Counted from the stretch's first letter, positions 17,990 to 49,401 are shown. The stretch is 64,000 nucleotides of DNA from an uncultured Actinomycetes bacterium (GCA_963766295.1 CAVXYW010000001.1:666815-730814), one strand, 5' to 3'. Notes: generated by a model from the letters alone, not told the origin. Numbers and translations: made by a program.

Positions 17990-17992
17990 CTC

Positions 17993-18832: not shown

Positions 18833-18942
18833 AAATCCTCCAGGTCGAGCCATCGCTGAGGCGCTTTGTGCCGAAGCGAGTGATGGAGAACAGTGTCCCA
18901 AAACGCGGCTGGGCTGTCCCAGGTCGTTCCTAAGCTCGCGGG

Positions 18943-20286
18943 GTGGTGAAAACCAAGGTCGAGGCCGCTTGCCAGTCGTGCGGCGCCCGGATGCCGAGGT
19001 GGGTTGGACGGTGTCCGGAGTGCGGCGAGTTCGGCACGGTCGTCGAAGAGCGCATCGCACCGCCCAGCGTTGCCGTCCGCGAAGTTGCGACGCTGCCTCT
19101 GGCCGCGCAGGACCACGAGGCGGCCGATCGGATCCCAACGGGGATCGACGAGGTCGACCGCGTTCTCGGTGGCGGCATCGTGCCCGCGGGCGTCGTGTTG
19201 TTGGCCGGAGAGCCGGGAGTCGGCAAGTCGACGCTGAGCCTTCAGATCGCGATGTCGCTCGGCACATCGCGCGAGGTGCTTTTGGTGTGCGGGGAAGAAG
19301 CGCCACAACAGGTGAAGGCACGTGCGATGCGGCTCGGCCCGATACCGGAGGGTGTGCGTACTCTCGCCGACCCCGAGCTGCCGGCCGTGCTCGGTGCGAT
19401 ACAGGGATCCGGTGCGTCCGTTGTAATCGTCGATTCGATCCAAACCATCTTCGATCCCGACATACCGTCGGCGCCCGGTTCGGTTTCTCAGGTCCGTGAG
19501 TGCGGCGCGCGTTTGGTTCGGGCGGCACGCGACAACGGTGTCACCGTCATCCTCGTCGGACACGTCACAAAAGAAGGAGTCGTAGCCGGACCTCGCGTGC
19601 TCGAGCATCTCGTCGATGTCGTCCTGAACTTCGAGGGTGATCGCTCGAGTGGAGTGCGCGTGCTCCGCGGGTTGAAGAACCGTTTCGGTTCGACGCAGGA
19701 AGCAGGGTTCTTCCACATGGCTTCGGACGGCCTACTGCCGATCCGCGATGCGAGCGCATACCTTCTGGCCGATCGCCACGTCGGTAATCCCGGATCGATG
19801 CTCGCGGCTTGCGTCGAGGGCCGCAGGCCTTTCGTGTGCGAGGTGCAAGCGCTCATCCAGGCAGCCAATTCCGGTCCGATGGCACGGCGTACCGCCGTCG
19901 GGGTTGACGCATCACGTTTACCGCTTTTGGTTGCCGTTTTGGAGCGTCGTGGCGGCGTTGCTCTTAGCCGAAACGACGTATACGTGTCCGCCGTTGGTGG
20001 GATACGAATATCCGAACCTGCATGCGACCTGCCCATCGCTTTGGCGATGGTTTCGTCCTGGCGCGGCAAACCACTTCCGGACGATGCCGTTGCGTTCGGA
20101 GAGATCGGATTAGCCGGAGAGATCCGACAAGTCGCCCAGGGCGATCGCCGCCTGCACGAAGCGCGCAGTGTCGGATGCAAACATGCATTTGTGCCGCATA
20201 ACTTCACAAGCGAATTAGAAGGTGTAACTTTGCATCGTTTACGTCACATAAGCGACGCGTTAGCACTAATCAGCAAACAGTGGTAA
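18943..20286 (+). CDS. radA: DNA repair protein RadA/Sms
   Basis: N-terminal zinc ribbon CQSCGARMPRWVGRCPECGEF, Walker A GEPGVGKST, a KNRFG motif and a C-terminal Lon-like domain. Confidence 0.9.
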   Translation: MVKTKVEAACQSCGARMPRWVGRCPECGEFGTVVEERIAPPSVAVREVATLPLAAQDHEAADRIPTGIDEVDRVLGGGIVPAGVVLLAGEPGVGKSTLSLQIAMSLGTSREVLLVCGEEAPQQVKARAMRLGPIPEGVRTLADPELPAVLGAIQGSGASVVIVDSIQTIFDPDIPSAPGSVSQVRECGARLVRAARDNGVTVILVGHVTKEGVVAGPRVLEHLVDVVLNFEGDRSSGVRVLRGLKNRFGSTQEAGFFHMASDGLLPIRDASAYLLADRHVGNPGSMLAACVEGRRPFVCEVQALIQAANSGPMARRTAVGVDASRLPLLVAVLERRGGVALSRNDVYVSAVGGIRISEPACDLPIALAMVSSWRGKPLPDDAVAFGEIGLAGEIRQVAQGDRRLHEARSVGCKHAFVPHNFTSELEGVTLHRLRHISDALALISKQW

Positions 20287-23038: not shown

Positions 23039-23054
23039 CCTTATCTTGACGGTC

Positions 23055-24428
23055 ATGGGTCTGCGCTTCGAGAACACACTCGACGGTGAGAAGAAGGACT
23101 TCGAGCCGCTAGAACCCGCCACCGCGAAGATCTACGTCTGCGGGCCGACCGTCTACGACGTACCTCACATAGGGCATGCGCGCGCTGCGATTGTTTTCGA
23201 CGTCCTGCGCCGGCACCTCATGTGGCGCGGCTTCAATGTGCTGTTCGTTCGAAACATCACCGATGTGGACGACAAGCTGATCAACAAGGCGAACGAGTCG
23301 GGTGAGTCGACGGCCGTCGTCGCGGAGCGATACACGCGAGTTTACGAGGACGCCCTGCGGATGCTCGGTGTTCTCCCGCCCGACGTCGTGCCGCGGGCTT
23401 CGGGCCACATCACGGAGATGATCGACCTGATCCAGAAGCTGGTGGACGGCGGACACGCCTACCCCGGCGAGGGGAGCGTGTATTTCGCGGTCGAGTCCTT
23501 CAAGGATTACGGGAAGCTTTCCGGGCGCGGGCTCGACGATCTCGCGAACCGCGAACGCGTCGAGCCCGCGCCGGGGAAGCGCCATCCGCTCGACTTCGCG
23601 CTGTGGAAGGCGGCCAAACCGGGCGAGCCGTCGTGGCCGTCGCCCTGGGGGCCGGGACGTCCGGGCTGGCACATCGAGTGCTCGGCGATGTCGGCCAAGT
23701 ACCTCGGCCAGCCCTTCGACATACACGGCGGCGGTGCAGACCTGATCTTCCCCCATCACGAGAACGAGATCGCGCAGTCAGAGGCTGCTTTCGAGAAACC
23801 TTTTGCGCGCTACTGGCTGCACAACGGCCACGTGAAGTTCGGCGGCGAGAAGATGTCGAAGTCTTTGAAGAACTACATCAACGTGCAGGAGGTGCTCGAG
23901 GATTACTCGGCCAACGTCCTGCGACTATTCTTCTGCCAGGCGCACTACCGCTCTCAGATCGACTACGGGCCCGAAGCTCTGGACGAAGCGAAGGCGGTGT
24001 GGGATCGATTCGCTTCTTTCCTTCGCGCTTCTCGCTCGGACGCTCCACAGGCGGAGGTTGATAACAGTGACAAGCTCGCAGCTTTCGGCGCCGCCCTCGA
24101 CGACGACCTGAATACACCGCGGGCGCTAACCGAGCTGCACGAGATCGTGTCCCGCGGAAACCGTGCGTTGGAGTCCGGCGACGAGGCCGCGGCAGCTTCG
24201 GAGCGCGCAGCTCTCGTCGAAGGTCTGGGTGTTCTCGGGTTGTCCGCCGACGCTGAAGATAGGAGCAGCGAAGTTGTTGGTCCTCTGGTCCAGCTGTTGC
24301 TCGAACAGCGGGAGCAGGCACGAGCCGACAAGGACTTCGCGCGCGCCGATCAGATCCGTGATCGTCTCGTCGAGATCGGGGTCCGCGTCGAGGACTCTGC
24401 GTCCGGGCCGCGCTGGTTCTTGGAGTGA
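23055..24428 (+). CDS. cysS: cysteine--tRNA ligase
   Basis: HIGHARAAIVFD (HIGH) and KMSKSLKN (KMSKS) motifs. ATG is at 23055. Confidence 0.9.
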   Translation: MGLRFENTLDGEKKDFEPLEPATAKIYVCGPTVYDVPHIGHARAAIVFDVLRRHLMWRGFNVLFVRNITDVDDKLINKANESGESTAVVAERYTRVYEDALRMLGVLPPDVVPRASGHITEMIDLIQKLVDGGHAYPGEGSVYFAVESFKDYGKLSGRGLDDLANRERVEPAPGKRHPLDFALWKAAKPGEPSWPSPWGPGRPGWHIECSAMSAKYLGQPFDIHGGGADLIFPHHENEIAQSEAAFEKPFARYWLHNGHVKFGGEKMSKSLKNYINVQEVLEDYSANVLRLFFCQAHYRSQIDYGPEALDEAKAVWDRFASFLRASRSDAPQAEVDNSDKLAAFGAALDDDLNTPRALTELHEIVSRGNRALESGDEAAAASERAALVEGLGVLGLSADAEDRSSEVVGPLVQLLLEQREQARADKDFARADQIRDRLVEIGVRVEDSASGPRWFLE

Positions 24429-31394: not shown

Positions 31395-32228
31395 ATGACC
31401 CTTCGCGTCCTCACTCTCAATCTCTGGAACCGGTCGGGTCCGTACGAGGAGCGCAAGCACCGAATACGTGAATGGGTCGAGCGCCTCGATCCGGACGTCA
31501 TCGGCTTCCAGGAGTCGATGCGCGGCGAGGGTTTCGACCAGGTAGGCGAACTGCTGGACGGTTTGCCGTACGAGATCGACCTCGGTGTTGCCAGCCGGTG
31601 GGACGAGATGGACTTCGGCAACGCGATAGCCAGTCGCTGGCCGATATCCGACAGGGAAGTCGTCGAACTTCCGACGGCCGACACCGACGAGACGCGATGT
31701 GCGTTGTCCGTGACCATCGACGCGCCCTTCGGTGATCTTGGTTTCACCTGCACTCATCTGAACTGGAAGTTCCATCACGGAATGGCGCGGGAGAAGCAGG
31801 TCGTCGCCGTTGCGGACGTTGCGCTGCGGCGTCGTCCTCGCGGCGAGTTCCCGCCGGTGATCGTCGGAGACTTCAACGCCGATCCCGACTCGAGTGAGAT
31901 CCGGTACATGACCGGCCTCCACGCGCTCGAGGGCCGCAGCACCTACTTTTACGACGCGTGGCCGATCGCCGGCGCTGGTGGGAGTGGGTTCACTTGGAGC
32001 AACCGGAACCACTTCGCGGCCATCGCGCTCGAACCTGACCGGCGGATCGATTACGTGTTCGTCGGGTATCCGGTCAGGCTCGGCGAGAAATTCGGTGTCG
32101 GCCGCATCGAGAGTTGCGTTGTGGTTTGCGACGACGAGGTCGACGGTGTCTGGCCGTCGGATCACTTCGGTGTGTATGCGGAACTTCGGACGGAACCGAT
32201 GCCGCGGCCGCAGTGGCCGATGAGCTGA
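31395..32228 (+). CDS. endonuclease/exonuclease/phosphatase (EEP) family protein
   Basis: LRVLTLNLWN...VIGFQE and a C-terminal SDHFGV motif. Its stop overlaps the next start (TGATG). Confidence 0.65.
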   Translation: MTLRVLTLNLWNRSGPYEERKHRIREWVERLDPDVIGFQESMRGEGFDQVGELLDGLPYEIDLGVASRWDEMDFGNAIASRWPISDREVVELPTADTDETRCALSVTIDAPFGDLGFTCTHLNWKFHHGMAREKQVVAVADVALRRRPRGEFPPVIVGDFNADPDSSEIRYMTGLHALEGRSTYFYDAWPIAGAGGSGFTWSNRNHFAAIALEPDRRIDYVFVGYPVRLGEKFGVGRIESCVVVCDDEVDGVWPSDHFGVYAELRTEPMPRPQWPMS

Positions 32229-33244
32229 TGGGTCGGCCCTTGTCGAAGCGAATCTCGCCTCGCCTCGCCGTCATCGCTTTGGTCGTGTTGCTCTTGATTT
32301 TGGCCACCGAGGCGGCCATTCGGGTGCGAGCCTCCGCACTTCCGCCTCCGCAGCGTTGGTCGACCCCGGATCTGACGCACAAGGAGCTACAGATCGGTGA
32401 TCTGCAACGCCGAGGTGGGGCGTCCGTTGCCTTCCTAGGCTCGTCGTCCGTCGACGGCGCAATAGACGCGAGCATGATTCGACACGGTATCGAGAGGCGT
32501 CCGGCATACAACGCAGGCCTACGAGGAGGAAGCATCGGGATGGTGTCGTCCTGGGCGCAACTAGTAGTCATTCCGCGGCTTCGTCCGGATGTGGTCGTGC
32601 TCGGAGTGATCAGCCGTGAGTTGAGCGGGAACGATCCTGTGACGACTGAACGCGAGCAGGACTTCTACGCGGCGCCGGCCGTGCGTCACCTGCTCGAAAG
32701 CGAGAACTTGTTGCAGCGCGTCGAGCGCAACATCGAGGACGTGTCAAAGCTCTTCGAGTACCGCACAGTGCTGCGCCGGCCTCGTGCGATCCGTGAGTTC
32801 CTCGGCCTCAGTGTTGCTCCGGCCATTACCGATCCGAACGTGTATATCGCTCCTGACGGACAGTTCAGGATCTTTCTGACGCGTAAGTACGAGAAGGTCG
32901 GCGGGCCGTTCGTGGATGAGATGCGAAGTTATGAGCTCGGGGACGAGCAGAGGGTCCGGCTCCGGCAGCTCCTCGCGTTCCTGAGTGAGCACATTGAACA
33001 CGTAATCGTCGTCAACATGCCGGTGACCGAAGAATACGTTGGTTCGCATCCGCGCAAGCACGAAGATTACGACGCATTCTCGCGAGTGCTGAAGCGTGAG
33101 GCCGAGCGCGTGGAGGCGTCGTTCATCGATGCGGGGGTGTGGCCCGATAGGTTCTTCGGCGATCTCGTGCATGTGAACACGGTCGGATCGCGCCGCATCA
33201 CCCGGATCATCGACGCGGAGATCGACTCCTTGCCGGCAGGGTAA
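32228..33244 (+). CDS. membrane-anchored SGNH-fold protein, DltD-like (putative partner of the adjacent MBOAT)
   Basis: N-terminal TM anchor (LAVIALVVLLLILATEAAI), a FLGSSSVDG serine motif and a C-terminal DLVHVN (DxxH) motif. It is convergent with and 8 nt from the MBOAT gene. Confidence 0.45.
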   Translation: MGRPLSKRISPRLAVIALVVLLLILATEAAIRVRASALPPPQRWSTPDLTHKELQIGDLQRRGGASVAFLGSSSVDGAIDASMIRHGIERRPAYNAGLRGGSIGMVSSWAQLVVIPRLRPDVVVLGVISRELSGNDPVTTEREQDFYAAPAVRHLLESENLLQRVERNIEDVSKLFEYRTVLRRPRAIREFLGLSVAPAITDPNVYIAPDGQFRIFLTRKYEKVGGPFVDEMRSYELGDEQRVRLRQLLAFLSEHIEHVIVVNMPVTEEYVGSHPRKHEDYDAFSRVLKREAERVEASFIDAGVWPDRFFGDLVHVNTVGSRRITRIIDAEIDSLPAG

Positions 33245-33251
33245 GTCTCGC

Positions 33252-34730
33252 TCAGAACTGGAAGTAGATGAACGGCGTCGGCGTTCCGCCGCTGAACACG
33301 ATCACGGCGACGACCATCACACCAAGAACGGCCCCGGCCGACACTGGGTTCATTCCGTAAGTGAGTGACTCATGGACCGCCTCCTGCGCCGTTGCCGTAG
33401 CCCCGAGTTGGGCGCGCGTCCGCGTCGCCTCGATGGCTTGGATCCGGCGTTTGCGCGACCAGAGATCGATGACGAGAACGGCTAGAGCCGCGATCGGAAT
33501 GAGCAAGGCGCCCTCTGGTGACGGAACACCCGGCCGCAGTGTCGCGATCCGCTTACCGATGGTCAATGCGTCGTCGAACGAGGCTGCACGGAAGAACACC
33601 ACGCCCACGCAGTACAGCGCGAACGTCCGCACGATGGCCGGAAAGTCCCTCCATCTCACCAGCATCGGGTGACGGTTTTCAGGCACTGGACGTAGACGCC
33701 AGTACGCGACGAGAACGCCGTTAAATACTCCCCAGAAGACGAATGTCCAAGCCGCGCCGTGCCAAAGGCCGATGAGCGCAAAGATGATCAGCACGTTCAA
33801 GATCGCTCGAAGTCGTCCCTGCCTTGCGCCTCCAAGGGGACGGCCGACGAACTCGGTGAACCACCAACCAAGTGACGTGTGCCACCGCTGCCAGAACTCC
33901 CGCATATCGCGACTCAGGAATGGCTCTTCGAAGTTGCGTCGCAGCTCGACGCCGAGCAATCGGGAGATCCCGCGGGCCATGTCGCTGTAGCCAGAGAAGT
34001 CGCCGTAGACCTGCACCGCGAAGCCGACCGTCGCAAGCACCAACGTTCGCGAACTGTGGGTCTCTGGTGCCGAATAGGCACTGTTGACGAACGTCGCGAT
34101 GCCGTCGGCTATGACGACCTTCTTGAACAAACCGGTGAGGATCAGTGCGATCGCGGACTCTGTCAGTGCTCGGTCCGGAGCTTCGCGTCGACGTTGGATC
34201 TGCGGTAGTAGCGACGTGGGCCTTTCGATGGGGCCGGCCACGAGTTGCGGAAACCACGCAACGAACGTGGCGAAAGTGACCAGGTTCCGTTCCGCATGCA
34301 TCTGCCGCCGGTAGACGTAGAAGACGTATGCGAGCGTCTGGAACGTGTAAAAGCTGATTCCGACCGGCAGAACCACTTCCAGCAGGACCGGGTTCGCGGA
34401 CAGTCCCAGCCAACCGAGGGCTGATGTGAAACTTTCGGCGAAGAAATCGAAGTACTTGAAGACCGCGAGTATGCCGATCTGAACCACAAGGCTCGTCGCC
34501 AGGAGGGCCTTTCGCGTGCTCGGCTCGTCCTTCGTATCGAGAGCGCGGCCGACGAAGTAGTCGACGATCGCGGACAAATACAAGAGTCCGAGAAATCGCC
34601 AGTCGAACGCCGCGTAGAAGACCGAGCCGGCGACAAGCATCAGCCGGTTCTGGCCCTTGAGGCCGAAACGGTAGTACAACAACAACACCACGGCGAAAAG
34701 CGCGACGAACTGGAGCGTGTTGAAGGTCAC
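33252..34730 (-). CDS. MBOAT family membrane O-acyltransferase (DltB/AlgI-like)
   Basis: 492 aa, multi-TM, with the MBOAT pattern (FVAWFPQLVAGPIERP, a conserved His region, WRRWHTSLGWW). GTG start. Confidence 0.8.
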   Translation of the reverse strand: MTFNTLQFVALFAVVLLLYYRFGLKGQNRLMLVAGSVFYAAFDWRFLGLLYLSAIVDYFVGRALDTKDEPSTRKALLATSLVVQIGILAVFKYFDFFAESFTSALGWLGLSANPVLLEVVLPVGISFYTFQTLAYVFYVYRRQMHAERNLVTFATFVAWFPQLVAGPIERPTSLLPQIQRRREAPDRALTESAIALILTGLFKKVVIADGIATFVNSAYSAPETHSSRTLVLATVGFAVQVYGDFSGYSDMARGISRLLGVELRRNFEEPFLSRDMREFWQRWHTSLGWWFTEFVGRPLGGARQGRLRAILNVLIIFALIGLWHGAAWTFVFWGVFNGVLVAYWRLRPVPENRHPMLVRWRDFPAIVRTFALYCVGVVFFRAASFDDALTIGKRIATLRPGVPSPEGALLIPIAALAVLVIDLWSRKRRIQAIEATRTRAQLGATATAQEAVHESLTYGMNPVSAGAVLGVMVVAVIVFSGGTPTPFIYFQF

Positions 34731-34766
34731 TGCGGCCTGCGATCAAGCATCTCGAAGGACTTTGCT

Positions 34767-35600
34767 GTGAATGATGTCTCGCACGACCCCGCCAGTCATT
34801 ACGACCGGGTCACCGAGGCTTGGACGTTGCTCTTGGGCGAGGATCTTCACTACGGCTTGTTCCGCTTAGGCAATGAGGGACTCCCTGAGGCGACTGCGGC
34901 GCTGACCAAGTCGATGATCGATGCAGCGGATATCGAAGCTGGGCTCGAAGTGCTCGATGTCGGGTGCGGGACAGGCGCACCCGCATGCCACCTCGCAGCC
35001 GTTTATGGGGCACGCGTGACCGGCATCACCACCAGCGCGGTAGGAGTGGCTTCGGCGCGACGCCGCGCAACGGTGGAAGGGATTGATTCCCTTGTTTCTT
35101 TTGAAGAGCGTGACGGCATGGACAACGGTTTCCCCGAGGAATCGTTCGACAGGGTTTGGGTTCTTGAGTCGTCCCATCTGATGCGTGAGCGCGACAGTCT
35201 GATAGCAGAGTGCGCACGCGTGCTTCGTCCTGGGGGCCGGTTGGTGCTGTGCGACATCATGCTCCGCCGACCGATGCCCTTTGATGAGGTTCGCAGGTTG
35301 CGCAAACCTCTCGCCCTGCTCCGCGAGGTATTCGGCGAAGCTCGGATGGAGCCACTCGCGAAGTACGAAGAGCTTGCGCAAGCGAACGGCCTCGTCGTTG
35401 AACAGGCAACGGACCTCACGCAGGTGACGCTCCCCACGTTCGCTCGCTGGCGCGACAACGCCGAGACTCATCGCGACGCTGTGATCTCCCTCCTCAGTCC
35501 CGACGGGCTCGAGCGCTTCGTCGAGGGAACAGTCGTGCTTGAGGGGTTCTGGGACGACGGTACCCTCGGGTACGGCCTGATCGCGGCCGGCAAGCCGTAA
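34767..35600 (+). CDS. class I SAM-dependent methyltransferase, mycolic-acid cyclopropane synthase (CMAS) family-like
   Basis: SHYDRVTEAWTLLLGEDLHYGLF... and LEVLDVGCGTGAPACHLAAVYGARVTGITTS match the CMAS-family layout. GTG start. Confidence 0.7.
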   Translation: MNDVSHDPASHYDRVTEAWTLLLGEDLHYGLFRLGNEGLPEATAALTKSMIDAADIEAGLEVLDVGCGTGAPACHLAAVYGARVTGITTSAVGVASARRRATVEGIDSLVSFEERDGMDNGFPEESFDRVWVLESSHLMRERDSLIAECARVLRPGGRLVLCDIMLRRPMPFDEVRRLRKPLALLREVFGEARMEPLAKYEELAQANGLVVEQATDLTQVTLPTFARWRDNAETHRDAVISLLSPDGLERFVEGTVVLEGFWDDGTLGYGLIAAGKP

Positions 35601-35608
35601 AGGCTCCA

Positions 35609-36343
35609 TCACGCCGTGAGGCCGCCGTCGACGACGATGACCTGACCGGTGACGAATGCGGCTTGAGGTGACGCGAGGAAAAGTACCGCCGAAGCCACAT
35701 CCTCGGGCTCCCCAAGTCGGCCCACCGGAGTACGTCGGATGATCTGTTCGAGATCGTTCTCATCCAAGCCGTGTGTCATTTCCGTCCGGAGGTATCCGGG
35801 TGCAACGGAATTAACCGTGATACCGCGCCCGCCGAGTTCCCGGGCGAGGGCACGGGTGAACCCGTTGAGTGCCGCCTTGGTAGAGCTGTACACAGAGAGT
35901 CCGCGATAGCCGGAGAGTCCGACGATGGACGAGATGTTGATCACGCGTCCCGTTTCCTGCCTCAGCATGCGCCGGACAACGGCGCGCGTTAGGCGGATCG
36001 TGCCCTTGAGGTTGAGATCCACCATCGTGTCCACGTCGTCCTCGTGTACAAGACCGACAACTCCGTCGATCGCAACACCGGCGTTGTTCACGAGAACGTC
36101 GATTGCACCGAACCGCTCGACCACGTTGCGCACGAACGGGTTCGCTGCCTCTCGGTCGGTGAGATCGATGGCCTCGAAATAGAAGCGATCGGGGCCCGCC
36201 TCGGCTGCTAACGAGTCCGTCTCGGCCGTCGGTGTCCGACTGCATGTAGCGACACGGTCGCCGCAGGCGAGGAACGCTCGGATCAGCGCCGCACCAAGAC
36301 CGCGGCTCCCGCCGGTAACGATGATGGCTCGGCCTGTCGTCAC
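35609..36343 (-). CDS. SDR family oxidoreductase (3-oxoacyl-ACP reductase FabG-like)
   Basis: [13 protein letters not shown] glycine-rich motif, NNAG, and an S...YxxxK catalytic pattern. Overlaps the upstream adenylating-enzyme gene by 4 nt. Confidence 0.8.
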
Positions 36344-37710
36344 TGCGTCGCCTCTTCACGGCCGCGGGCGATCTTGTGTCCGCGCACCTCGAGGGAGTCG
36401 ACGAAGCGGATACGCCTGGGTCTCGCGGCTGGAGCGAGAGTCGCGCAGGCCGTCCGGATCTCGTCGGCTAGATCCTCGGTGTCGACACCGGACACTGCGA
36501 CGACGTCAACAGCGACTATCTGTCCCGTGACGGGATTCGCTCGGCCATACGCCCGGACGAACTCGACGCCGGCGATCGACTCCACGATCTCTTCTACGGG
36601 AAGGGGATGCACCTTTACGCCGCCAACATTGATGATCTCGCTGGTTCGCCCGACGAACGCGATCCGGTCTCCACGCACCTCGACGAGATCACCTGTTGGC
36701 CGCCAGTCGTCGTCGATGTCGCTTTCGCCGTAGTAGCCGAGCATCCCGACGCGCGAGCGCACATGTAGCTCGCCGTCGACGATCCGCATCTGCACGTCGG
36801 CATCGTCGCTTCGTTCGAGCACCGTCGTGGGCAGACCGCTCTGCCTGTCGCGAACCGAGATCCCGAGGCCGAATTCGGTTGCGCCGTATACCTGCGAGAT
36901 TTTCGCCGACGGGAACAAACGACCCAGCCGCTCGATGAGGGGGCCCGGGACGGCTTCACCGCCGAGGGTGATCTGCTCGAGCGGGATCCCGCGCGCCGTC
37001 TCTTCGTCCAGCAGTGTGGCGATGAAGCGCCAGAACGTTGGCGTAGCACTCACGTGCGTAACGCCGAGTTCCCTCATGACCGCGAGGGCTTGCCTCGGCT
37101 GGTTCGAATCAGAAGCGACAAGCGTTGCGCGGCTGGCTAGCACGTGGAGTAACACTTGCACTCCAGCGAACTGGTTCAGGTTGTAAGCGAGCAGCCAGCG
37201 GGCGCCGGGCTGCACGTCGGTGTGCTTCGCCGCACCGACCAACCGAGCCCAGTCGTGTCGAGCTGCACGCTGGCGGCCGGTCGTGCCGGTTGTAAGGATC
37301 AGCACCGGGGCTTTGCCGGCTATGGCAGGTGCATCTCCGGTCTCTACCGGCAGGGATTCGAGCGGCACGACTTCAACGGACCCGAGATCAATCGGCCGGG
37401 CCGAGACGACGACGCGGTGCCCGAACTGCATTGCAAACGACTCGATAGATCCGGCGTCGAGACGATCCGGATAGACGCACCCTTCGCTCCCCACGGCGGA
37501 GGAAGCGCAGAGCAAAGGCAGAAGGTCTACAGCTTCTCCGATGCACCCGAACCGGTCGATAGAGCGCGCCTGGAGCCCTCGCGCCAGCGCGTTACTCGTG
37601 TCGAGACACTCGGCATACGTGTAGGAACGGGTAGTCGAAACGACGAGGGGCCGATCGGGAGCTTCCTCGGCGCAGGCGCGCACCAGCTGAATCAGCACGG
37701 TGCACCCCAC
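36340..37710 (-). CDS. AMP-binding (class I adenylate-forming) enzyme, short DltA-like acyl/aminoacyl-carrier-protein ligase candidate
   Basis: [10 protein letters not shown] (A3), YGATEFG (A5), TGD (A7) and [13 protein letters not shown] (A8) motifs. 456 aa, GTG start, located 19 nt downstream of the ACP gene. Confidence 0.7.
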
Positions 37711-37728
37711 ACGTTATGTGCCCTTCCG

Positions 37729-37959
37729 TCAGCGTTTGTAGAACTCGATGACCTCGCCTACGGTCTTCGGCTCGACGCCCTCGCTGTAGGGGTCGCGCCC
37801 GAGGTCGTCCTCGAGAACGACGGAGAGCTCCGCGACCTCCAGAGAGTCGAGCTTGAGGTCGTCGTATAGGTTCGAGTCGAGGCTTACCTTTGCGGCGCCT
37901 TTCTTGCCTCGCATCAATGCCTTGAGCGCTTTGAATACGGTCTTCTCAGCATCTGACAT
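37729..37959 (-). CDS. acyl carrier protein (DltC/ACP-like)
   Basis: 76 aa with a LKLDSLEVAEL phosphopantetheine-attachment (DSL) motif. ATG start with an AGGAG RBS. Confidence 0.75.
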   Translation of the reverse strand: MSDAEKTVFKALKALMRGKKGAAKVSLDSNLYDDLKLDSLEVAELSVVLEDDLGRDPYSEGVEPKTVGEVIEFYKR

Positions 37960-40448: not shown

Positions 40449-41207
40449 ATGTCCACCGCACAGATCAACGGGATAGAGCTCGGTTACGAAGCCTCGGGCG
40501 AGGGCCAAGCCGTCTTCTTCACGCACGGCTATCAAGCTTCAAAGGCGATGTGGCAGCCGCAGCGTGAAGCTTTGGACGGCGCCTATCGCGTGATCACTTG
40601 GGATCTACGAGGGCACGGAGAGTCGGGTATCCCCGACGATCCCGCCATGTACTCGCACGATCTGATGATCGGCGACATGGGTGCGCTAATCGATCACTTG
40701 GATGCCGAGCCGTCCGTCCTCGTCGGACACTCCCTCGGAGGCTATGCGTCGTTGTGCTTCTACCTCGAACGTCCGCAGTCCGTGCGCGCGTTGGTTCTAG
40801 TCGGCACAGGCCCAGGGTTCCGCGATCCCGAAGCTCGTGGGAAGTGGAACAGCATGGCCGAGCGGTTCGCTACACGTTTGGATGAAGACGGTTTGGACAT
40901 CCTCAAGCGCGCGAGCGCTGAGGTCAGCACGGCCAACCACCGATCGGCGAACGCGCTGGCCTTGGCGGCCCGCGGGATGCTGGCTCAATCGGATTCACGG
41001 GTGATCGACGCGATCGCCGAGACCTCGGTCCCGACGCTGGTGCTGATCGGGTCTGAAGACAAGCCTTTCATCGGGTCTAGCGAGTACATGGCCAAGAAGA
41101 TCCCGGGGGCCGAGCTGGTGACAGTGGATGGGGGAGGGCACGCCGCGAACATGGAACGGCCCGAGGCCTTCAACGCAGCCCTGCGGAGCTTCCTGGACCG
41201 GCTCTAG
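40449..41207 (+). CDS. alpha/beta hydrolase
   Basis: GHSLGG nucleophile elbow, a HG region near the N-terminus, and ATG 40449. The upstream part of the track ORF is an out-of-frame extension. Confidence 0.7.
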   Translation: MSTAQINGIELGYEASGEGQAVFFTHGYQASKAMWQPQREALDGAYRVITWDLRGHGESGIPDDPAMYSHDLMIGDMGALIDHLDAEPSVLVGHSLGGYASLCFYLERPQSVRALVLVGTGPGFRDPEARGKWNSMAERFATRLDEDGLDILKRASAEVSTANHRSANALALAARGMLAQSDSRVIDAIAETSVPTLVLIGSEDKPFIGSSEYMAKKIPGAELVTVDGGGHAANMERPEAFNAALRSFLDRL

Positions 41208-41394
41208 CAGCACGATTAGGCCCTTTGGAGGGGCCGCCGGTAGACTCTTGACTCGGGAATCAAGGGGCCACTGGGAGGGGTTCCTGGCTCGAATCGTAGA
41301 GCTGCTACGTGAGCGAACGCGTGCTCCGCTTGCCCTGATCGAGCGAGCGGGCGCGGCGTGGTCCGCACCCTCGGATTGGGTTCGCCGCGCCATC

Positions 41395-43485
41395 ATGCTC
41401 GTCGCAGCCATCGGCGTTTGGCTGATCCTCGACAACACGCTGGACAGAGGACTGCCGGCCGGGATCATCATCCTCGGCCTGGTCTTCGGCTCCCTCTACG
41501 CCCTGACGGCTATCGGGTTGGTCCTGATATACCGCGCGAACAGCGTTGTGAACTTCGCACAAGCCGAGTTGGGCGGTATCGCTGCCGTTTTGTCGATCCA
41601 GCTGGTTCTGCAGTACCAGGTCAATTACTTCGCTTCGCTGATCGTGGGGATCATCGCTTCGACGCTGATCGGCGCGCTTGTCTACACGTTCATCATTCGA
41701 AGGTTCCGGCGGGCGCCCAGGCTCATACTCGCCGTCGCAACCATCGGCATCGCGCAGATATTGCAGGGAGGGTCCATCCTCATCTCGCTGTTGTTCGGCG
41801 AGATCCCTGCGGGACGGCGATACGAGACGCCCTTCGACGTATCCTTCTCGGTCTTCCCGGTCATCTTCCGCAGCGATCACCTGCTGGCGATGATCATCGT
41901 CCCGGTCGTGATGGTCGCTTTGGCTTTGTTCCTTAAGTTCACCGACTACGGCATAGCGATCAGGGCAGCGGCCGAGAACGGCGACCGAGCCAATCTGCTC
42001 GGCGTGCCGATCCATTACCTGCATTTGGGCGTGTGGTCGATCGCCGCTTTCCTGTCGGCGCTCGCTGCGCTGCTGCGCACACCGATCGTCGGGTTCTCGG
42101 CGTTCACGGGCGTTACGGGGAGTGGCAACGCGCTTCTGCTTCGAACGCTGGCCGCTGCCGTGATCGGACGTATGGAAAGCCTGCCTAGAACTGTTGTGGC
42201 GGCTCTCGGCCTCGGCATCTTCCAGGAGGCCGCTTCGTGGACCTTCTCGAACACCGTGATCGTCGACGCGTTCCTCGTCCTGATCATCCTCGGCGCCCTT
42301 CTCGTCCAGCGTGGACTGATCAGCCGTGCAGCCGAGACCGGTATGTCGACGTGGCGGGCGATCCGCGAGGTGCGTCCGATCCCGGCGGAGCTCAGGAACC
42401 TGCCCGAAGTCCGGTGGGGAGTTTGGGGCCTGCGCGCGGTCATGGCGGCTTTCGTGCTGACCCTTCCTCTTTGGGCAAACACCGCGCAGGAAGAGGTCGT
42501 CGGACTCATCTACATCTACGCGATCATCGCCGTTTCCTTGGTGATCCTCACCGGTTGGGCCGGTCACATCTCGCTGGGTCAGTTCGCACTCGTCGGCTTC
42601 GGAGCGGCAACTACCGCTGTTCTCTACGGACGGCACGATTTCGATTTCTTCCTCGCTTTGATTTGCGGGATCGCGGTATCCGCATTGACCGCGCTGGTGA
42701 TCGGCTTGCCGGCTTTGCGCATCCGGGGTCCGTTCCTGGCGGTAACGACGCTGGCGTTCGCGGTGACGGCCGGCTCGTACTTCCTGGAAGACCGGTATTT
42801 CCCATGGTTCGTCCAGGACCGTATCGAAAGACCTACGTTCTGGGACCGCATCCCGCTGGACGCCGATTGGAAGATGTACTACGTCACGTTGATCGGGCTG
42901 GTCCTCGCTCTGGGTGCGGCCTGGAACTTGCGCCGGTCGCGCACCGGCCGAGCGTTGATCGCCGTGCGCGACAACCAGCTGGCCGCCGAGAGTGTGAGCA
43001 TCAACTCAACGCGCCTGAAGCTGACCGCGTTCGTGATATCGGGCGCGATGGCTGGGTTCGCCGGAGGGATCTACGCATTGCATCAGAACGGCATCTTCAC
43101 CGGTTCGTTCGATGCGGAAGTCAGCATCCGGCTGTTCTCCATGGTCGTTATCGGAGGTCTCGGCTCCCTTCCCGGTGCGCTACTGGGAGCCGGGTACGTC
43201 GAAAGCACTGAGTTCTTCCTATCCGGTGGATGGGCGCTTCTTGCTTCTGGTGCGGGGATCCTCGTCCTGCTGATGTTCCTGCCCGAGGGCCTCGGAGGTT
43301 TGATGTATACGGTCAGGGACGGGATCCTCCGCCGCATCGCACGGCGCCGCGACCTCGTCGTGCCGAGCTTGCTGGCCGACGTCCGCATCGAGACCGGCGA
43401 GATCGACATCGACATGACATCCGTTCTTTCCGGCAACGGACGCGTCGACAGAGCTTTGCCCAAGGCAAAGACGGGGAGCCGCTGA
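41395..43485 (+). CDS. branched-chain amino acid type ABC transporter permease, fused LivH-LivM
   Basis: About 696 aa. The first half is LivH-like (SLYALTAIGLVLIY..NFAQAE) and the second half is LivM-like (IIAVSLVILTGWAGHISLGQFALVGFGA). The start is uncertain (ATG 41395; the frame is open from 41128). Confidence 0.7.
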   Translation: MLVAAIGVWLILDNTLDRGLPAGIIILGLVFGSLYALTAIGLVLIYRANSVVNFAQAELGGIAAVLSIQLVLQYQVNYFASLIVGIIASTLIGALVYTFIIRRFRRAPRLILAVATIGIAQILQGGSILISLLFGEIPAGRRYETPFDVSFSVFPVIFRSDHLLAMIIVPVVMVALALFLKFTDYGIAIRAAAENGDRANLLGVPIHYLHLGVWSIAAFLSALAALLRTPIVGFSAFTGVTGSGNALLLRTLAAAVIGRMESLPRTVVAALGLGIFQEAASWTFSNTVIVDAFLVLIILGALLVQRGLISRAAETGMSTWRAIREVRPIPAELRNLPEVRWGVWGLRAVMAAFVLTLPLWANTAQEEVVGLIYIYAIIAVSLVILTGWAGHISLGQFALVGFGAATTAVLYGRHDFDFFLALICGIAVSALTALVIGLPALRIRGPFLAVTTLAFAVTAGSYFLEDRYFPWFVQDRIERPTFWDRIPLDADWKMYYVTLIGLVLALGAAWNLRRSRTGRALIAVRDNQLAAESVSINSTRLKLTAFVISGAMAGFAGGIYALHQNGIFTGSFDAEVSIRLFSMVVIGGLGSLPGALLGAGYVESTEFFLSGGWALLASGAGILVLLMFLPEGLGGLMYTVRDGILRRIARRRDLVVPSLLADVRIETGEIDIDMTSVLSGNGRVDRALPKAKTGSR

Positions 43486-46400
43486 TGGCCAAAGCTCCTA
43501 CCCGAAGAAAACCATCCGCACGGAAAGCTGCTCCCACCGAAGAGATGAAGACCCCCGAGATGTTGGCTGCGGAGATCGCGGGAGCCAAGCTACCGCCGCG
43601 CATACTCCCCGACGAGCCGCCGCCGCCCGAGTACGGACGGTTCGATCCGCGTCGCATCACCCATCCGGCGCCGTTGTTCCCGCTCGTCGTGCTGTTCGGG
43701 CTAAACGCTGTAGACGAGCTCGATCGTGTTGCGTTCGGTGTTCTCACCCCTGAGATCCGCGACTGGTTCGGTCTGTCGCTCTTCTCGGTAAGCCTGATCG
43801 CGACCCTGGTTGTCCCCGTGTCGCTCCTGCTCGAGTTGCCCATCGCCTATTACGCCGACAGGAAGAACCGCGTCCGAATGGCTGTAGCAGGGGCCAGCGT
43901 CTGGGGCGCCTTCTCCTTGTTCACAGGTATGGCCTGGAACGTTGGAACTCTGATCGTAGGACGGCTGGGCTCGGCAACCGGCCGCTTGTTCAACGCGACC
44001 CATCGCAGCCTCCTCTCCGACTATTTCCCGACCTCTTCTCGAGCTCGTGTCTTCTATGCGCACGGACTCGCGAATTCCCTGGGGCAGCTGATCGCTCCGC
44101 TGGCGGCCGGCCTTCTGGCTGCGGCCTTCACTTGGAGGACGCCTTTCGTTCTTTTCGCCATCCCTACGGCCTTTTTCGTGTTTCTCGGTTTGCGACTGCG
44201 GGAGCCCAAGCGCGGTATGCACGAGCGGCTAGAGGCCGGAGCCGACCAAGAGACCGCAGAGATCGAAGATGATGCGCCGGGCTTCGCGGAGACCTTCCGA
44301 GTTCTGTTCTCGGTGCGATCGGCTAAGCGCATCTACTACGCCTTGCCGTTCCTCACTGCGTCGTTCTTCGGTTTCGCCACGTTCCTGAGTGTCTTCTACA
44401 ACGACGAATACAACATCGGTCCGGGTACGCGTGGTGCGATCTTCTCGTCCATCGAGGGCGTCCAGATCATCTCGATCATCATCGGTGGGATCTTCGTCCA
44501 GCGCTTCGTCAATCGCAGTCCGGCACTTGCGATAAAACTGCTTGGTGTGTCGGCCATCGGTGTGTCGGCCGGGATAATCATCCTCGCGCTCTCTCCGAAT
44601 CTAGGTGTCGCGATCGCCGGCCACGCGATCCTGTCCTTCATGAGCGCGCCTCTACTCCCGGGAGCGCTCGCTGTGATCTCGTTCATCATCCCGCCGAGCA
44701 TGCGCACTCTTGGTTTCTCGACCGGGAACCTCTGGCTCCTGTTGGGTGCGCCGGCCATCCCGATCGTGGGCGCGATGGGCGACGCCTTTGGGATACGCGT
44801 CGCGCTGCTGATCATGGTGCCGATCTATCTGTTTGGTTCATTCCTGATCGCTTCTTCGGGCTTCACGATCGAAGCCGACATGGAACGAGTGAGAGTCTCG
44901 GCACGGGCGCAGGCGGATATGCGCCGGAGCCGTCGAGAGGGAAGTGCCAAGCTGCTCATCGCCCGCGACCTCGATGTTGCCTACGACGGCGTTCAGGTGC
45001 TCTTCGGAGTCGACTTCGAGGTTTCGGACGGGGAGATCATTGCCCTCCTCGGCACCAACGGTGCGGGGAAATCCACTCTCTTGCGAGCGATCTCCGGCTT
45101 GCAGCCGGCCAGCGGAGGCACCGTTCTGTTCGACGGACGCATCATCTCGGGCGCCGACCCCGTGCAGATCGCCCGCCTCGGTGTTGCGCAGATACCCGGC
45201 GGACGAGCCGTCTTCCCGACGCTCACGGTCGAAGAGAACATCCGCGTGGCCGGATGGATCTACCGCGGCGATGAGGAGCACGTTAAAGCCTCTACAGAAC
45301 GGATACTCGAGCACTTCCCTGTGCTGCGTGACCGCTGGGAAGCGCGGGCCGGCGACCTTTCCGGTGGCGAGCAGCAGATGCTTTCTCTCGCCCAAGCCTT
45401 CATCTCCAAGCCGAAGCTGCTCCTCATCGACGAGCTCACCCTCGGTCTCGCGCCAACCATCGTCGAGAAGCTGCTCGAGATCGTTCGTGAGATCCACGCG
45501 CAGGGAACGACCATCGTCCTCGTCGAGCAGTCGGTGAACATCGCATTGAAGCTTGCGAAGCGCGCCGTGTTCCTCGAGAAGGGTGAGGTGCGCTTCTCCG
45601 GACCTACCAAGGATCTTCTCGCACGTCCCGACGTCTTGCGCGCTGTGTTCCTCAAAGGGGCATCGTCGATGACCGACGGCAACGGCGAACTTCGGCGGGC
45701 AGGACCAGGGCGAACGAAGTCGACAAGTGCCCTTAAGGACGGAGAGGTCGTCTTGCAGTCGATCGGCGTAAGCAAGCATTACGGCGGTGTGCTCGCGGTC
45801 GATGGTGTCGATCTCGAGCTACGTCAGGATGAGATCCTCGGGATCATCGGCCCAAATGGGGCCGGCAAAACTACCTTCTTCGATCTTCTTACCGGCTTCA
45901 CCCCGCTCGACGGGGGCCGCGTCATCCTCAACGGTGAAGACGTCACCACGTGGCCGGCCAGCAAGCGAACGAAACACGGTCTCGGTCGGTCTTTCCAAGA
46001 CGCACGCCTCTGGTCTTCACTCACCGTGCGCGAAGCCGTCGCCGTCGCTTTCGAGCGAACGATCACCGAGCGGTCGCCTGTGCACGCGATGTTCGGTCTT
46101 CCGGTGGTCGGGGATGCCGAGCGGAATGTGAAGCGTCGCGCGGAAGAGCTCATCGAGCTCTTGGGGTTGAAGGCGTTCGCCGACAAATTCATATCCGAGC
46201 TTTCTACAGGATCACGACGCATCGTCGAGATCGCTACGCTCCTCGCGCATCGTCCATCCGTCCTTCTTCTCGACGAGCCTTCCTCGGGTATCGCTCAGAA
46301 GGAGACCGAAGCGCTCGGACCACTGCTGAAACGCGTGCGTGAGTACATGGACGGGAGCCTGGTTGTCGTCGAGCACAATGTGCCGTTGATCTCGACCTTG

Positions 46401-46643
46401 GCCGATCGCATAGTGGCGATGGACCTCGGACGCGTGATCGCCGACGGCACGCCGGACAAGGTGCTCAACGACCCGGCCGTCGTCGAGTCGTACCTCGGCA
46501 CCAGCGGCTACAAGGAGCTCACAGGAGCGGGCGACGGCCGTAAGCGGCGGAGCGCGGTACGTAAGCGCCCGACACGCAAGAGCGCAGTGCGCACTCCTCG
46601 CAAAAAGCCGACACGCCGCCGGACAACACGTAAGGCTCGATGA
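43486..46643 (+). CDS. tri-domain fusion protein: MFS-like 12-TM domain + LivF-like ABC ATPase + LivG-like ABC ATPase, with a Lys/Arg-rich C-terminal tail
   Basis: ATG 43486 overlaps the permease stop (TGATG). MFS signatures: GLNAVDELDRVAFG and YADRKNRVRMAVAG. First NBD: GTNGAGKSTLLRAISGL...LSGGEQQMLSLA...LLIDE. Second NBD: GPNGAGKTTFFDLLTG...LSTGSRRIVEIA...LLLDEP. The tail is RKRPTRKSAVRTPRKKPTRRRTTRKAR. One uninterrupted frame. Confidence 0.65.
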
Positions 46644-49399: not shown

Positions 49400-49401
49400 G
49401 C

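What the first reader, a model, noticed from the sequence alone, without database searches (positions are those of the whole stretch)
32228..37959. Dlt-like gene set in an actinobacterial context: ACP, short adenylating enzyme, SDR reductase, CMAS-type methyltransferase, MBOAT and a DltD-like anchored SGNH-fold protein
Six adjacent genes reproduce the logic of the Firmicutes dltABCD D-alanylation machinery. There is a 76-aa carrier protein (DSL motif), a class I adenylating enzyme 19 nt downstream that would load it, and a multi-TM MBOAT (DltB/AlgI-like) that in known systems relays the carrier-bound acyl or aminoacyl group across the membrane. There is also a membrane-anchored SGNH-like protein (GSSS and DxxH motifs) in the position of DltD. 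Here the operon additionally encodes an SDR ketoreductase overlapping the ligase gene, and a CMAS-family SAM methyltransferase sits between the MBOAT and the ACP operon. That suggests the transferred group is a modified fatty acyl or hydroxyacyl moiety rather than D-alanine. Beta-oxidation-type genes (ACAD, DUF35 plus SCP-x thiolase, hotdog thioesterases, enoyl-CoA hydratase) flank the locus. I am not aware of such an ACP-dependent MBOAT acylation system being characterised in Actinomycetota. It is a candidate envelope lipid or glycan O-acylation pathway.
Basis: partly seen in the sequence, partly recalled or inferred. Interest (0 to 1): 0.78.

Follow-up and report, generated by a model that had tools for sequence, protein, structure and literature searches.

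The report
Carrier-protein-linked MBOAT–SGNH glycan acylation module
An uncultured Acidimicrobiia-type actinobacterium carries a six-gene unit that probably builds an unusual acyl group on a small carrier protein and passes it across the membrane to decorate a surface sugar polymer; this combines features of two known systems, but only gene-neighbourhood evidence supports it.

Summary
All six genes are real and belong to the stated families. They are an ACP (Ser39), a short adenylating ligase, a FabG-like SDR, a class-I methyltransferase, an MBOAT and an N-terminally anchored SGNH-fold protein.

It is not a Dlt orthologue. The MBOAT is of the PatA/AlgI type: its C-terminus carries the fused FxYxxF acyl-shuttle motif (FIYFQF), it scores far below the DltB cut-off, and it lacks DltB's DltC-docking helix. 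The ligase resembles MenE and aryl-acid ligases, not DltA. The methyltransferase is closest to RebM-type O-methyltransferases, not lipid CMAS enzymes.

The set recurs in three gene orders in five of seven related Acidimicrobiales loci. In three of those five it lies within glycosyltransferase and exporter gene clusters.

The ACP–ligase–SDR cassette is also common without any MBOAT. In those loci a hexapeptide-repeat acyltransferase usually sits beside it.

Best reading (about 0.55): the cassette makes a modified acyl-ACP, and here an MBOAT→Tyr shuttle→SGNH relay puts that acyl group on an exported glycan.

Main rival (about 0.3): the MBOAT/SGNH pair is an ordinary acetyl-CoA O-acetyltransferase lying next to an independent cassette.

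Verdict: a new variant of a known kind. The flanking β-oxidation genes are unrelated.

The parts
37729..37959 (-). Dedicated acyl carrier protein, 76 aa. The phosphopantetheine site is Ser39 (codon 37843-37845) in LDSL.
   Evidence: PP-binding E 1.4e-4. It scores below the FAS-ACP cut-offs (30.6 vs 70.45 bits). LDSL...AE.S..LE...GDP is invariant in 8 cassette ACPs. It is always the gene directly upstream of the ligase.
36340..37710 (-). Short (456 aa) ANL-family adenylating enzyme, the predicted acid:ACP ligase.
   Evidence: AMP-binding plus AMP-binding_C. No NCBIfam cut-off is reached; the best hits are MenE and fatty-acid ligases at about 97 bits. Best PDB hits are MenE 2.8e-14, feruloyl- and 4-chlorobenzoyl-CoA ligases; DltA reaches only 3.7e-6. 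The core motifs TTGTTGxPKG, YxxTE, TGD, GR and the C-terminal Lys446 are invariant in 22 homologues.
35609..36343 (-). Classical SDR of the FabG type (244 aa), translationally coupled to the ligase by a 4-nt overlap.
   Evidence: adh_short_C2 1.6e-60. TIGR01830 3-oxoacyl-ACP reductase scores 244 bits, and it passes the NF009466 FabG subfamily cut-off (237 vs 222). It follows the ligase in 18 of 19 cassette loci with adequate flanks.
34767..35600 (+). Class-I SAM methyltransferase (277 aa), RebM-like. It is convergent with the SDR and divergent from the MBOAT across a 36-bp spacer.
   Evidence: Pfam Methyltransf_11 2.5e-21 and CMAS 1.5e-20. PDB: RebM 3bus 5e-38, MitM 4e-32, D-glucose O-methyltransferase 3e-30, CMAS enzymes 7e-12. 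It is present beside the cassette in 11 of 19 MBOAT-less loci. It is present in five of the six cassette-bearing (full or partial) MBOAT-linked loci; in L086 a PapA_C acyltransferase takes its place.
33252..34730 (-). MBOAT, 492 aa, PatA/AlgI-type architecture. Conserved His284 and catalytic His324 (codon 33759-33761), plus two extra C-terminal TM helices.
   Evidence: PF03062 2e-20. Among solved structures, sequence search matches only DltB (3e-28), with WHG aligned to His336. AF2 model pLDDT 89; Foldseek best hit is DltB (E 1e-13, TMt 0.70).
33255..33272 (-). C-terminal acyl-shuttle motif F487-I-Y489-F-Q-F492 (FxYxxF). Tyr489 is the predicted acyl-Tyr intermediate.
   Evidence: Sequence. The motif is present at the C-terminus of 119 of 120 homologues. 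F487, Y489 and F492 are invariant. The tail 489-492 has pLDDT below 50, suggesting flexibility. The motif and its role are described for DltX and PatA in PMC12148441.
33366..33434 (-). Insertion of about 22 aa specific to the clade with 55% or more identity (residues 433-455). It lies in the basic loop between the last two TM helices, which is predicted to be cytoplasmic.
   Evidence: Clade comparison on alignment A5; helices 410-436 and 462-480 in the model. A role as an ACP docking site is speculation.
32228..33244 (+). N-terminally anchored SGNH-fold acyltransferase or esterase (338 aa). Ser73 (32444-32446), Asn95, Asp312 and His315 (33161-33172).

Best explanation
The six genes form one acylation module for an exported cell-surface glycan.

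Cytoplasmic steps (inferred from family membership and gene order):
- The ligase adenylates a carboxylic acid that is not an amino acid. It may be a short keto or hydroxy acid. The ligase then loads it onto Ser39-phosphopantetheine of the dedicated ACP.
- The FabG-like SDR reduces a keto group on the ACP-bound acyl chain.
- The RebM-like methyltransferase caps a hydroxyl or carboxyl group.

Membrane step (inferred by analogy with DltB and PatA):
- The acyl-phosphopantetheine thioester enters the cytoplasmic tunnel of the MBOAT.
- His324 catalyses transfer of the acyl group to Tyr489 of the enzyme's own C-terminal FIYFQF shuttle on the outer face.

Outside step (inferred):
- The anchored SGNH protein takes the acyl group onto Ser73 and esterifies a hydroxyl of a polysaccharide. 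That polysaccharide is made elsewhere in this genome.

The system therefore has a Dlt-like donor side (carrier protein plus ligase) and a PatAB/AlgIJ-like membrane and outer side (fused shuttle, no DltX).
For: - Family and fold assignments are secure. Catalytic residues and the FxYxxF motif are invariant.
- ACP, ligase, SDR, MBOAT and the SGNH-like gene stay together in five of seven examined loci whose MBOAT is 56-73% identical, in three different gene orders and with unrelated flanks. These are the window, L174, L001, L088 (MBOAT-ACP-ligase-SDR as one operon with an 18-bp gap) and L086. A sixth locus, L173, keeps an intact ACP beside the MBOAT.
- Identical 'longest contig' lengths tie MBOAT hits to ligase hits on eight further contigs, and to SGNH-like hits on five; three contigs carry all three.
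- In the window and in L174 the six genes stand alone. No glycosyltransferase or other acyltransferase lies nearby, so the MBOAT/SGNH pair is the only candidate outlet for the acyl-ACP.
- The distribution is complementary. A hexapeptide-repeat acyltransferase lies within 5 kb of the cassette in 0 of 6 MBOAT-linked loci and in 10 of 16 MBOAT-less loci (Fisher one-sided about 0.012, my calculation).
- Neighbours of the cassette elsewhere are glycan genes: GT4, GT2, Wzt-type ABC exporter, flippase, sugar epimerases.
Against: - No experiment exists, and no ACP-MBOAT complex could be modelled.
- The MBOAT is a typical PatA/AlgI-type enzyme. Characterised members of that type use acetyl-CoA (PMC12148441).
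- The DltC-docking helix of DltB is not conserved. ACP-linked and ACP-less relatives share the same PLGG motif at that site.
- One MBOAT at 58% identity has its SGNH partner but no cassette within 10 kb. L173 lacks the ligase and the SDR.
- In 19 ligase-seeded loci with adequate flanks, none has an MBOAT. In the ligase tree, MBOAT-linked cassettes are interspersed with MBOAT-less ones.
- The acyl substrate is unknown.
Confidence: 0.55

Rival explanations
1. There are two independent tailoring modules that merely sit side by side. The MBOAT/SGNH pair is an ordinary acetyl-CoA-dependent O-acetyltransferase of the PatAB/AlgIJ type. The ACP-ligase-SDR-methyltransferase cassette makes an acyl group that an unlinked, probably cytoplasmic, transferase uses.
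For: - The MBOAT has the fused FxYxxF shuttle and the PLGG motif of acyl-CoA-type MBOATs, and no DltB-type docking helix.
- The cassette occurs widely without an MBOAT and usually with hexapeptide transferases.
- A close MBOAT/SGNH pair exists without the cassette.
- Sister-clade MBOATs (45-48% identity) pair with the SGNH-like gene alone.
- Tailoring genes of one glycan commonly cluster.
Against: - In the window and in L174 the six genes are isolated from all other glycan genes yet remain together. The cassette would then have no transferase nearby.
- The genes stay adjacent through three rearrangements, including an MBOAT-ACP-ligase-SDR operon.
- No hexapeptide transferase lies near the cassette in any of the 6 MBOAT-linked loci, against 10 of 16 MBOAT-less loci.
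Confidence: 0.3
2. The module acylates an envelope lipid or a secreted small molecule rather than a polysaccharide. For example, it could esterify a glycolipid with a hydroxy or methoxy acyl group.
For: - In the window and in L174 there are no glycan genes nearby. The neighbours are acyl-CoA-metabolising enzymes.
- The Pfam CMAS hit and a weak hit to the fatty-acid O-methyltransferase Mtf2.
- A PapA_C acyltransferase replaces the methyltransferase in L086.
Against: - The flanking lipid-metabolism genes are not conserved between loci.
- Three of the five full-set loci, and nearly all cassette-only loci, are embedded in GT2/GT4, exporter or flippase clusters.
- Characterised bacterial MBOAT-SGNH pairs act on polymers (PMC12148441).
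Confidence: 0.1
3. It is a true Dlt orthologue that D-alanylates, or otherwise aminoacylates, a teichoic-acid-like polymer.
For: It has the same four functional roles. DltB is the only solved structure matched by the MBOAT, and DltD gives the longest structural alignment to the SGNH protein.
Against: - The DltB equivalog score is 153 against a cut-off of 375, and ACP-less relatives score the same.
- The SGNH-like protein gives no Pfam match to the DltD family at E <= 0.01.
- The ligase is nearer to MenE and aryl-acid ligases than to DltA.
- The ACP matches FAS-type ACPs; no DltC-named entry appears among the 60 best PDB matches or among the NCBIfam hits.
- The shuttle is fused, so there is no DltX.
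- An SDR and a methyltransferase have no role in D-alanylation.
Confidence: 0.03

Closest known systems
Dlt pathway of Firmicutes (DltA, DltC, DltB, DltX, DltD)
   Same: Both have a small phosphopantetheinyl carrier protein, an adenylating enzyme encoded next to it, an MBOAT with the conserved His, and an N-terminally anchored SGNH-fold protein. Both have the tyrosine shuttle motif FxYxxF.
   Different: - The shuttle is fused to the MBOAT on two extra helices instead of being a separate DltX microprotein.
- The MBOAT is far below the DltB family cut-off and lacks the hydrophobic HC helix that docks DltC.
- The ligase is not DltA-like.
- The SGNH protein does not match the Pfam DltD family.
- There are an extra SDR and methyltransferase.
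- The host is an actinobacterium, and the context is polysaccharide synthesis rather than teichoic acid.
PatA/PatB, AlgI/AlgJ/AlgX and WssH-type MBOAT-SGNH polymer O-acetyltransferases
   Same: The MBOAT architecture matches: about 470-490 aa, a PLGG motif, a catalytic His, two extra C-terminal helices, and a terminal FxYxxF. There is a separate SGNH partner outside the membrane. Sister-clade Acidimicrobiales MBOATs occur with the SGNH-like gene alone.
   Different: Those systems have no carrier protein and use acetyl-CoA (PMC12148441). Here a dedicated ACP, a ligase and an SDR are conserved next to the pair. The clade also has a 22-aa insertion in a basic cytoplasmic loop.
Vibrio cholerae O1 tetronate genes (VC0248-VC0252, wbeK-O)
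   Same: Both are sets of genes inside an O-antigen locus that make an unusual short hydroxy-acyl group for a sugar (PMC3441752). That WbeK is a carrier protein, WbeL an AMP-ligase-type enzyme and WbeO a hexapeptide transferase is from my memory of the 1990s rfb literature and was not checked here.
   Different: In V. cholerae the transfer is N-acylation of perosamine in the cytoplasm by a soluble transferase, with no MBOAT or SGNH. Sequence similarity between the two gene sets was not tested.
ACP-ligase-FabG(-methyltransferase) cassettes in uncultured Actinomycetota glycan loci
   Same: The same cassette, with 45-64% ligase identity in the same gene order, surrounded by GT2/GT4, exporter and flippase genes.
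   Different: Those loci have no MBOAT. A hexapeptide-repeat transferase usually lies beside the cassette instead. I found no published characterisation of them.

Membership tests
Dlt D-alanylation system | DltB-type MBOAT (reaches the TIGR04091 equivalog cut-off) | tested here: not met
   153 bits against a cut-off of 375. ACP-less relatives score 152-167.
Dlt D-alanylation system | Hydrophobic helix HC plus Lys/Arg that dock DltC (DltB M302, V305, I306, M309, K312, R317) | tested here: not met
   This region aligns to FVGRPLGGARQGRLRA in the window protein. The residue list comes from PMC11035591. The same motif occurs in ACP-less clades.
Dlt D-alanylation system | Separate DltX microprotein carrying FxYxxF | tested here: not met
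Dlt D-alanylation system | DltA-type D-alanine:carrier-protein ligase | tested here: not met
   DltA (7vhv) E 3.7e-6, against MenE 2.8e-14. No DltA model appears among the 25 best of the 74 NCBIfam hits. Substrate specificity itself cannot be tested here.
Dlt D-alanylation system | DltD family membership (Pfam PF04914) | tested here: not met
Bacterial MBOAT-SGNH polymer O-acyltransferases (PatAB/AlgIJ type) | MBOAT fold with the conserved catalytic His | tested here: met
   PF03062 2e-20. W323-H324-G325 is invariant and aligns to DltB His336. Foldseek to DltB gives TMt 0.70.
Bacterial MBOAT-SGNH polymer O-acyltransferases (PatAB/AlgIJ type) | Two extra C-terminal TM helices ending in FxYxxF | tested here: met
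   Helices 410-436 and 462-480, then FIYFQF. The motif is present in 119 of 120 homologues.
Bacterial MBOAT-SGNH polymer O-acyltransferases (PatAB/AlgIJ type) | Partner SGNH protein with a Ser-His-Asp triad, placed outside the membrane | tested here: met
Bacterial MBOAT-SGNH polymer O-acyltransferases (PatAB/AlgIJ type) | Acyl-CoA donor, no carrier protein | not testable with these tools
   Gene context argues for an ACP donor in this clade. Biochemistry is needed to decide.
ANL adenylate-forming enzymes | Core motifs A3 (TTGTTGxPKG), A5 (YxxTE), A7 (TGD), A8 (GR) and the A10 Lys | tested here: met
   These are invariant columns in 22 homologues. Pfam AMP-binding 88.7 bits.
Mycolic-acid/cyclopropane synthase (CMAS) methyltransferases | Pfam PF02353 gathering score, and closest characterised relatives are lipid-modifying CMAS enzymes | tested here: inconclusive
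   It passes PF02353 (74 vs 27 bits). However, RebM, MitM and a glucose O-methyltransferase are much closer (5e-38 to 3e-30) than CMAS enzymes (7e-12). All NCBIfam cyclopropane and mycolic models are far below their cut-offs.
FabG 3-oxoacyl-ACP reductases | Reaches a curated FabG cut-off | tested here: met
   NF009466 subfamily 237 vs 222 bits. The TIGR01830 equivalog is not reached (244 vs 298). The substrate is unknown.

The most novel reading that the evidence does not exclude
A clade of PatA/AlgI-type MBOATs has switched, or reverted, from acyl-CoA to a dedicated acyl-ACP donor. The result is a form intermediate between Dlt and PatAB/AlgIJ. It exports a non-acetyl group, probably a short hydroxy- or methoxy-acyl group made by the ligase, SDR and methyltransferase cassette, through the fused Tyr shuttle and an SGNH transferase onto a surface glycan of Acidimicrobiia. 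The same cassette can alternatively be coupled to cytoplasmic hexapeptide transferases. That would make it an interchangeable acyl-donor module with alternative inside and outside outlets.
Probability: 0.5. Interest if true: 0.72.

Novelty: new variant of a known kind. Interest (0 to 1): 0.6.

Why it matters
The current mechanistic picture (PMC12148441) divides bacterial MBOAT-SGNH systems into two kinds. Dlt has a carrier-protein donor and a separate DltX shuttle. All the others have an acyl-CoA donor and a fused shuttle, and are said to lack a carrier protein.

A carrier-protein-fed system with a fused shuttle would break that division. It would show that donor type and shuttle architecture evolve independently.

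It would also give a route for placing acyl groups other than acetate or D-alanine on extracellular glycans. And it would provide a first functional handle on the almost unknown cell envelope of Acidimicrobiia.

Separately, the widespread ACP-ligase-FabG cassette in actinobacterial glycan loci is an uncharacterised source of unusual sugar acyl substituents.

Tried and rejected
- An exact look-up of the window MBOAT and of its 100%-identical database twin found no contig on record, so the source genome's own context could not be retrieved.
- A locus search with the SGNH-like alignment failed because no stretch was conserved enough.
It returned only MBOATs at 47% identity or less, mostly from Bacteroidota. 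None had ACP or ligase neighbours. This was useful as a negative control but gave no named cultured relative.
- A profile search of PDB with the SGNH family gave only insignificant hits. The fold search was needed.
- The idea that the MBOAT is specially DltB-like was rejected.
- The idea that the methyltransferase is a lipid CMAS was downgraded.
- The idea that the beta-oxidation, EEP or peptidase neighbours belong to the system was rejected. None recurs in related loci, and the EEP gene was never found by phmmer in any locus.
- The promoter and terminator scan found nothing above shuffled expectation.
- Seven literature searches found no description of a carrier-protein-fed MBOAT other than Dlt. 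The library is not exhaustive.


Full report
**Observation**

The window has about 63% G+C. Its proteins' closest database relatives are from Acidimicrobiales and Acidimicrobiia metagenome-assembled genomes.

- ACP: 76 aa, PP-binding, D38-S39-L40.
- Ligase: 456 aa AMP-binding enzyme, starting 18 nt downstream of the ACP.
- SDR: 244 aa, FabG-like, overlapping the ligase stop by 4 nt.
- Methyltransferase: 277 aa, class I.
- MBOAT: 492 aa.
- A 338-aa protein with only a weak GDSL_2 hit.

**What the MBOAT is**

By sequence search, the only solved structures it matches are DltB (E 3e-28), with WHG aligned on DltB His336. The AlphaFold model (pLDDT 89) superposes best on DltB (TMt 0.70).

It is nevertheless not a DltB orthologue.
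- The DltB equivalog model gives 153 bits against a cut-off of 375.
- MBOATs that have no ACP neighbour, from Acidimicrobiales and Flavobacterium, score the same (152-167 bits).
- The protein ends in F-I-Y-F-Q-F. This is the FxYxxF acyl-shuttle motif. According to PMC12148441, Dlt carries this motif on the separate microprotein DltX. In PatA, AlgI and other acyl-CoA-dependent MBOATs it is fused to the C-terminus on two additional TM helices.
- The model shows those two helices (410-436 and 462-480) and a low-confidence terminal tail. The motif is present in 119 of 120 homologues.
- The DltB helix HC that docks DltC (M302, V305, I306, M309, K312, R317; PMC11035591) aligns to FVGRPLGGARQGRLRA. 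This is an AlgI-type PLGG motif shared by ACP-linked and ACP-less clades.

**The other enzymes**

- The ligase has all the ANL core motifs. It reaches no curated family cut-off. It is closer to MenE and to feruloyl- and chlorobenzoyl-CoA ligases (E 1e-14 to 1e-12) than to DltA (4e-6).
- The ACP scores below the FAS-ACP cut-offs and does not match DltC.
- The SDR passes a FabG subfamily cut-off.
- The methyltransferase passes Pfam CMAS. Its closest characterised relatives are RebM (5e-38), MitM and a D-glucose O-methyltransferase. Lipid CMAS enzymes reach only 7e-12.

**Conservation**

I examined seven loci whose MBOAT is 56-73% identical to the window's.
- L174 (73%) has the same six genes in the same order and, like the window, no glycan genes around them.
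- L001-L003 (59%) have the SGNH-like gene divergent from ACP-ligase-SDR, then the methyltransferase on the opposite strand, then the MBOAT. They lie inside a GT2/GT4/Bac_transf/AT3 cluster. That SGNH-like protein is 28% identical to the window's over its full length.
- L088 (62%) has the SGNH-like gene divergent from an MBOAT-ACP-ligase-SDR operon, followed by the methyltransferase on the opposite strand, among many GT and methyltransferase genes.
- L086 (56%) has the set with a PapA_C acyltransferase in place of the methyltransferase, next to an ABC-2 exporter.
- L173 (56%) keeps the AT3, SGNH-like, ACP, methyltransferase and MBOAT genes but has no ligase or SDR. Its ACP is intact.
- The P0073 locus (58%) has only the MBOAT and the SGNH-like gene.

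MBOATs at 47% identity or less never have ACP or ligase neighbours (80 genome loci; L004). Several of the Acidimicrobiales ones keep the SGNH-like gene.

**The cassette has a life of its own**

The ligase family is much larger than the MBOAT clade. In three long contigs and 80 ligase-seeded metagenome loci, no MBOAT was found.
- Of 19 loci with at least 2.5 kb on both sides of the ligase, 19 have the ACP, 18 the SDR and 11 the methyltransferase.
- A Pfam census of 140 neighbouring ORFs is dominated by GT4, GT2, methyltransferases, hexapeptide transferases, Wzt-type ABC exporters, flippases, sugar epimerases and dehydratases, and sulfotransferases (L096 in detail).
- In a ligase tree, the MBOAT-linked cassettes fall in one larger clade but are interspersed with MBOAT-less ones.
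- A hexapeptide-repeat transferase lies within 5 kb of the cassette in 10 of 16 MBOAT-less loci and in 0 of 6 MBOAT-linked loci.

**Interpretation**

ACP-ligase-SDR, often with the methyltransferase, is a glycan-tailoring cassette that makes a modified acyl-ACP. Its outlet varies.

In the window's clade the only conserved candidate outlet is the MBOAT/SGNH pair. The pair stays attached to the cassette through rearrangements, and even when the unit is detached from all other glycan genes. The window's flanks within about 15 kb are housekeeping and acyl-CoA metabolism genes.

I therefore favour (0.55) a carrier-protein-fed relay: acyl-ACP → His324 → Tyr489 shuttle → SGNH Ser73 → glycan hydroxyl. 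The steps beyond family and fold assignment are inferred by analogy with DltB/DltX/DltD and PatA/PatB.

A 22-aa insertion in the basic loop between the last two helices is specific to the clade with 55% or more identity. It is a possible ACP dock, but that is speculation, and P0073 has the insertion too.

The main rival (0.3) is that the pair is an ordinary acetyl-CoA O-acetyltransferase sitting beside an independent cassette. The PatA-like architecture, the cassette-less P0073 locus and the many MBOAT-less cassettes keep this rival alive.

The acyl group is unknown. The ligase's affinities and the FabG-like SDR point to a non-amino carboxylic acid with a keto or hydroxy function. The RebM-like methyltransferase, or the PapA_C enzyme in L086, may cap the resulting hydroxyl.

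**Novelty**

PMC12148441 states that MBOAT/SGNH pathways other than Dlt lack a carrier protein. Seven full-text searches found no counter-example. The V. cholerae O1 tetronate genes are a precedent for dedicated genes making an unusual acyl substituent on a glycan (PMC3441752), but transfer there is cytoplasmic.

I class this as a new variant of a known kind, supported by comparative genomics only.

Noticed in passing
window 32228-33244 (+): The public gene call for this ORF on the 838,747-bp source contig is only 234 aa (P0122). It lacks the membrane anchor and the catalytic Ser73. Homologues support the 338-aa form that starts at 32228.
   Followed up: yes
window 31395-32228 (+): An endonuclease/exonuclease/phosphatase-family gene ends in an ATGA overlap with the SGNH-like gene, which suggests co-transcription. 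No homologue was found in any related locus, so it is probably not part of the module.
   Followed up: partly
window 34731-34766; L174 9975-10000; L173 9946-10000: The methyltransferase and MBOAT genes are divergent with a very short spacer: 36 bp in the window and 26-55 bp in L174 and L173. This leaves almost no room for two separate promoters. They may use overlapping or leaderless promoters.
   Followed up: no
L001 4530-6687 (-); L173 6671-8849 (-): In two related loci an acyltransferase-3 (AT3) gene lies directly next to, and co-directional with, the SGNH-like gene. This mirrors the AT3-SGNH fusion of OatA-type enzymes. The SGNH protein might serve two membrane acyltransferases.
   Followed up: no
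L086 8558-9847 (-): A PapA_C (polyketide-associated acyltransferase) gene occupies the slot held by the methyltransferase in the other loci. This suggests alternative capping of the acyl group: O-acylation instead of O-methylation.
   Followed up: no
L173 8885-9945: This is a degenerate cassette. An intact ACP gene overlaps the end of the methyltransferase gene, and the ligase and SDR are absent, although the MBOAT and the SGNH-like gene are present.
   Followed up: partly
window 41128-46643 (+): Two very long overlapping ORFs. One is 785 aa with two BPD_transp_2 permease matches. The other is 1137 aa and combines an MFS_1 domain with two ABC_tran ATPase domains and a branched-chain ABC C-terminal motif. 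This is either an unusual fusion or an ORF-calling artefact from wrong start codons.
   Followed up: no
window 47564-51270 (-): Two large ORFs (651 and 622 aa) have no Pfam match at E <= 1e-5. ORFs at 17297-19528 (230 and 511 aa) also have no match.
   Followed up: no
window 23046-24428 vs L001 19365-20492: In both genomes a cysteinyl-tRNA synthetase gene lies about 8-9 kb from the module. In L001 the space between holds glycan-synthesis genes; in the window it does not. The window's genome may have lost or relocated that cluster.
   Followed up: no
one search hits P0302, P0353, P0354, P0369, P0391, P0408 (644-879 aa): Some members of the SGNH-like family are double-length proteins with two or three matched stretches. 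They are tandem duplications or fusions of the domain. The family is large: 5964 cluster representatives at E <= 1e-3.
   Followed up: no
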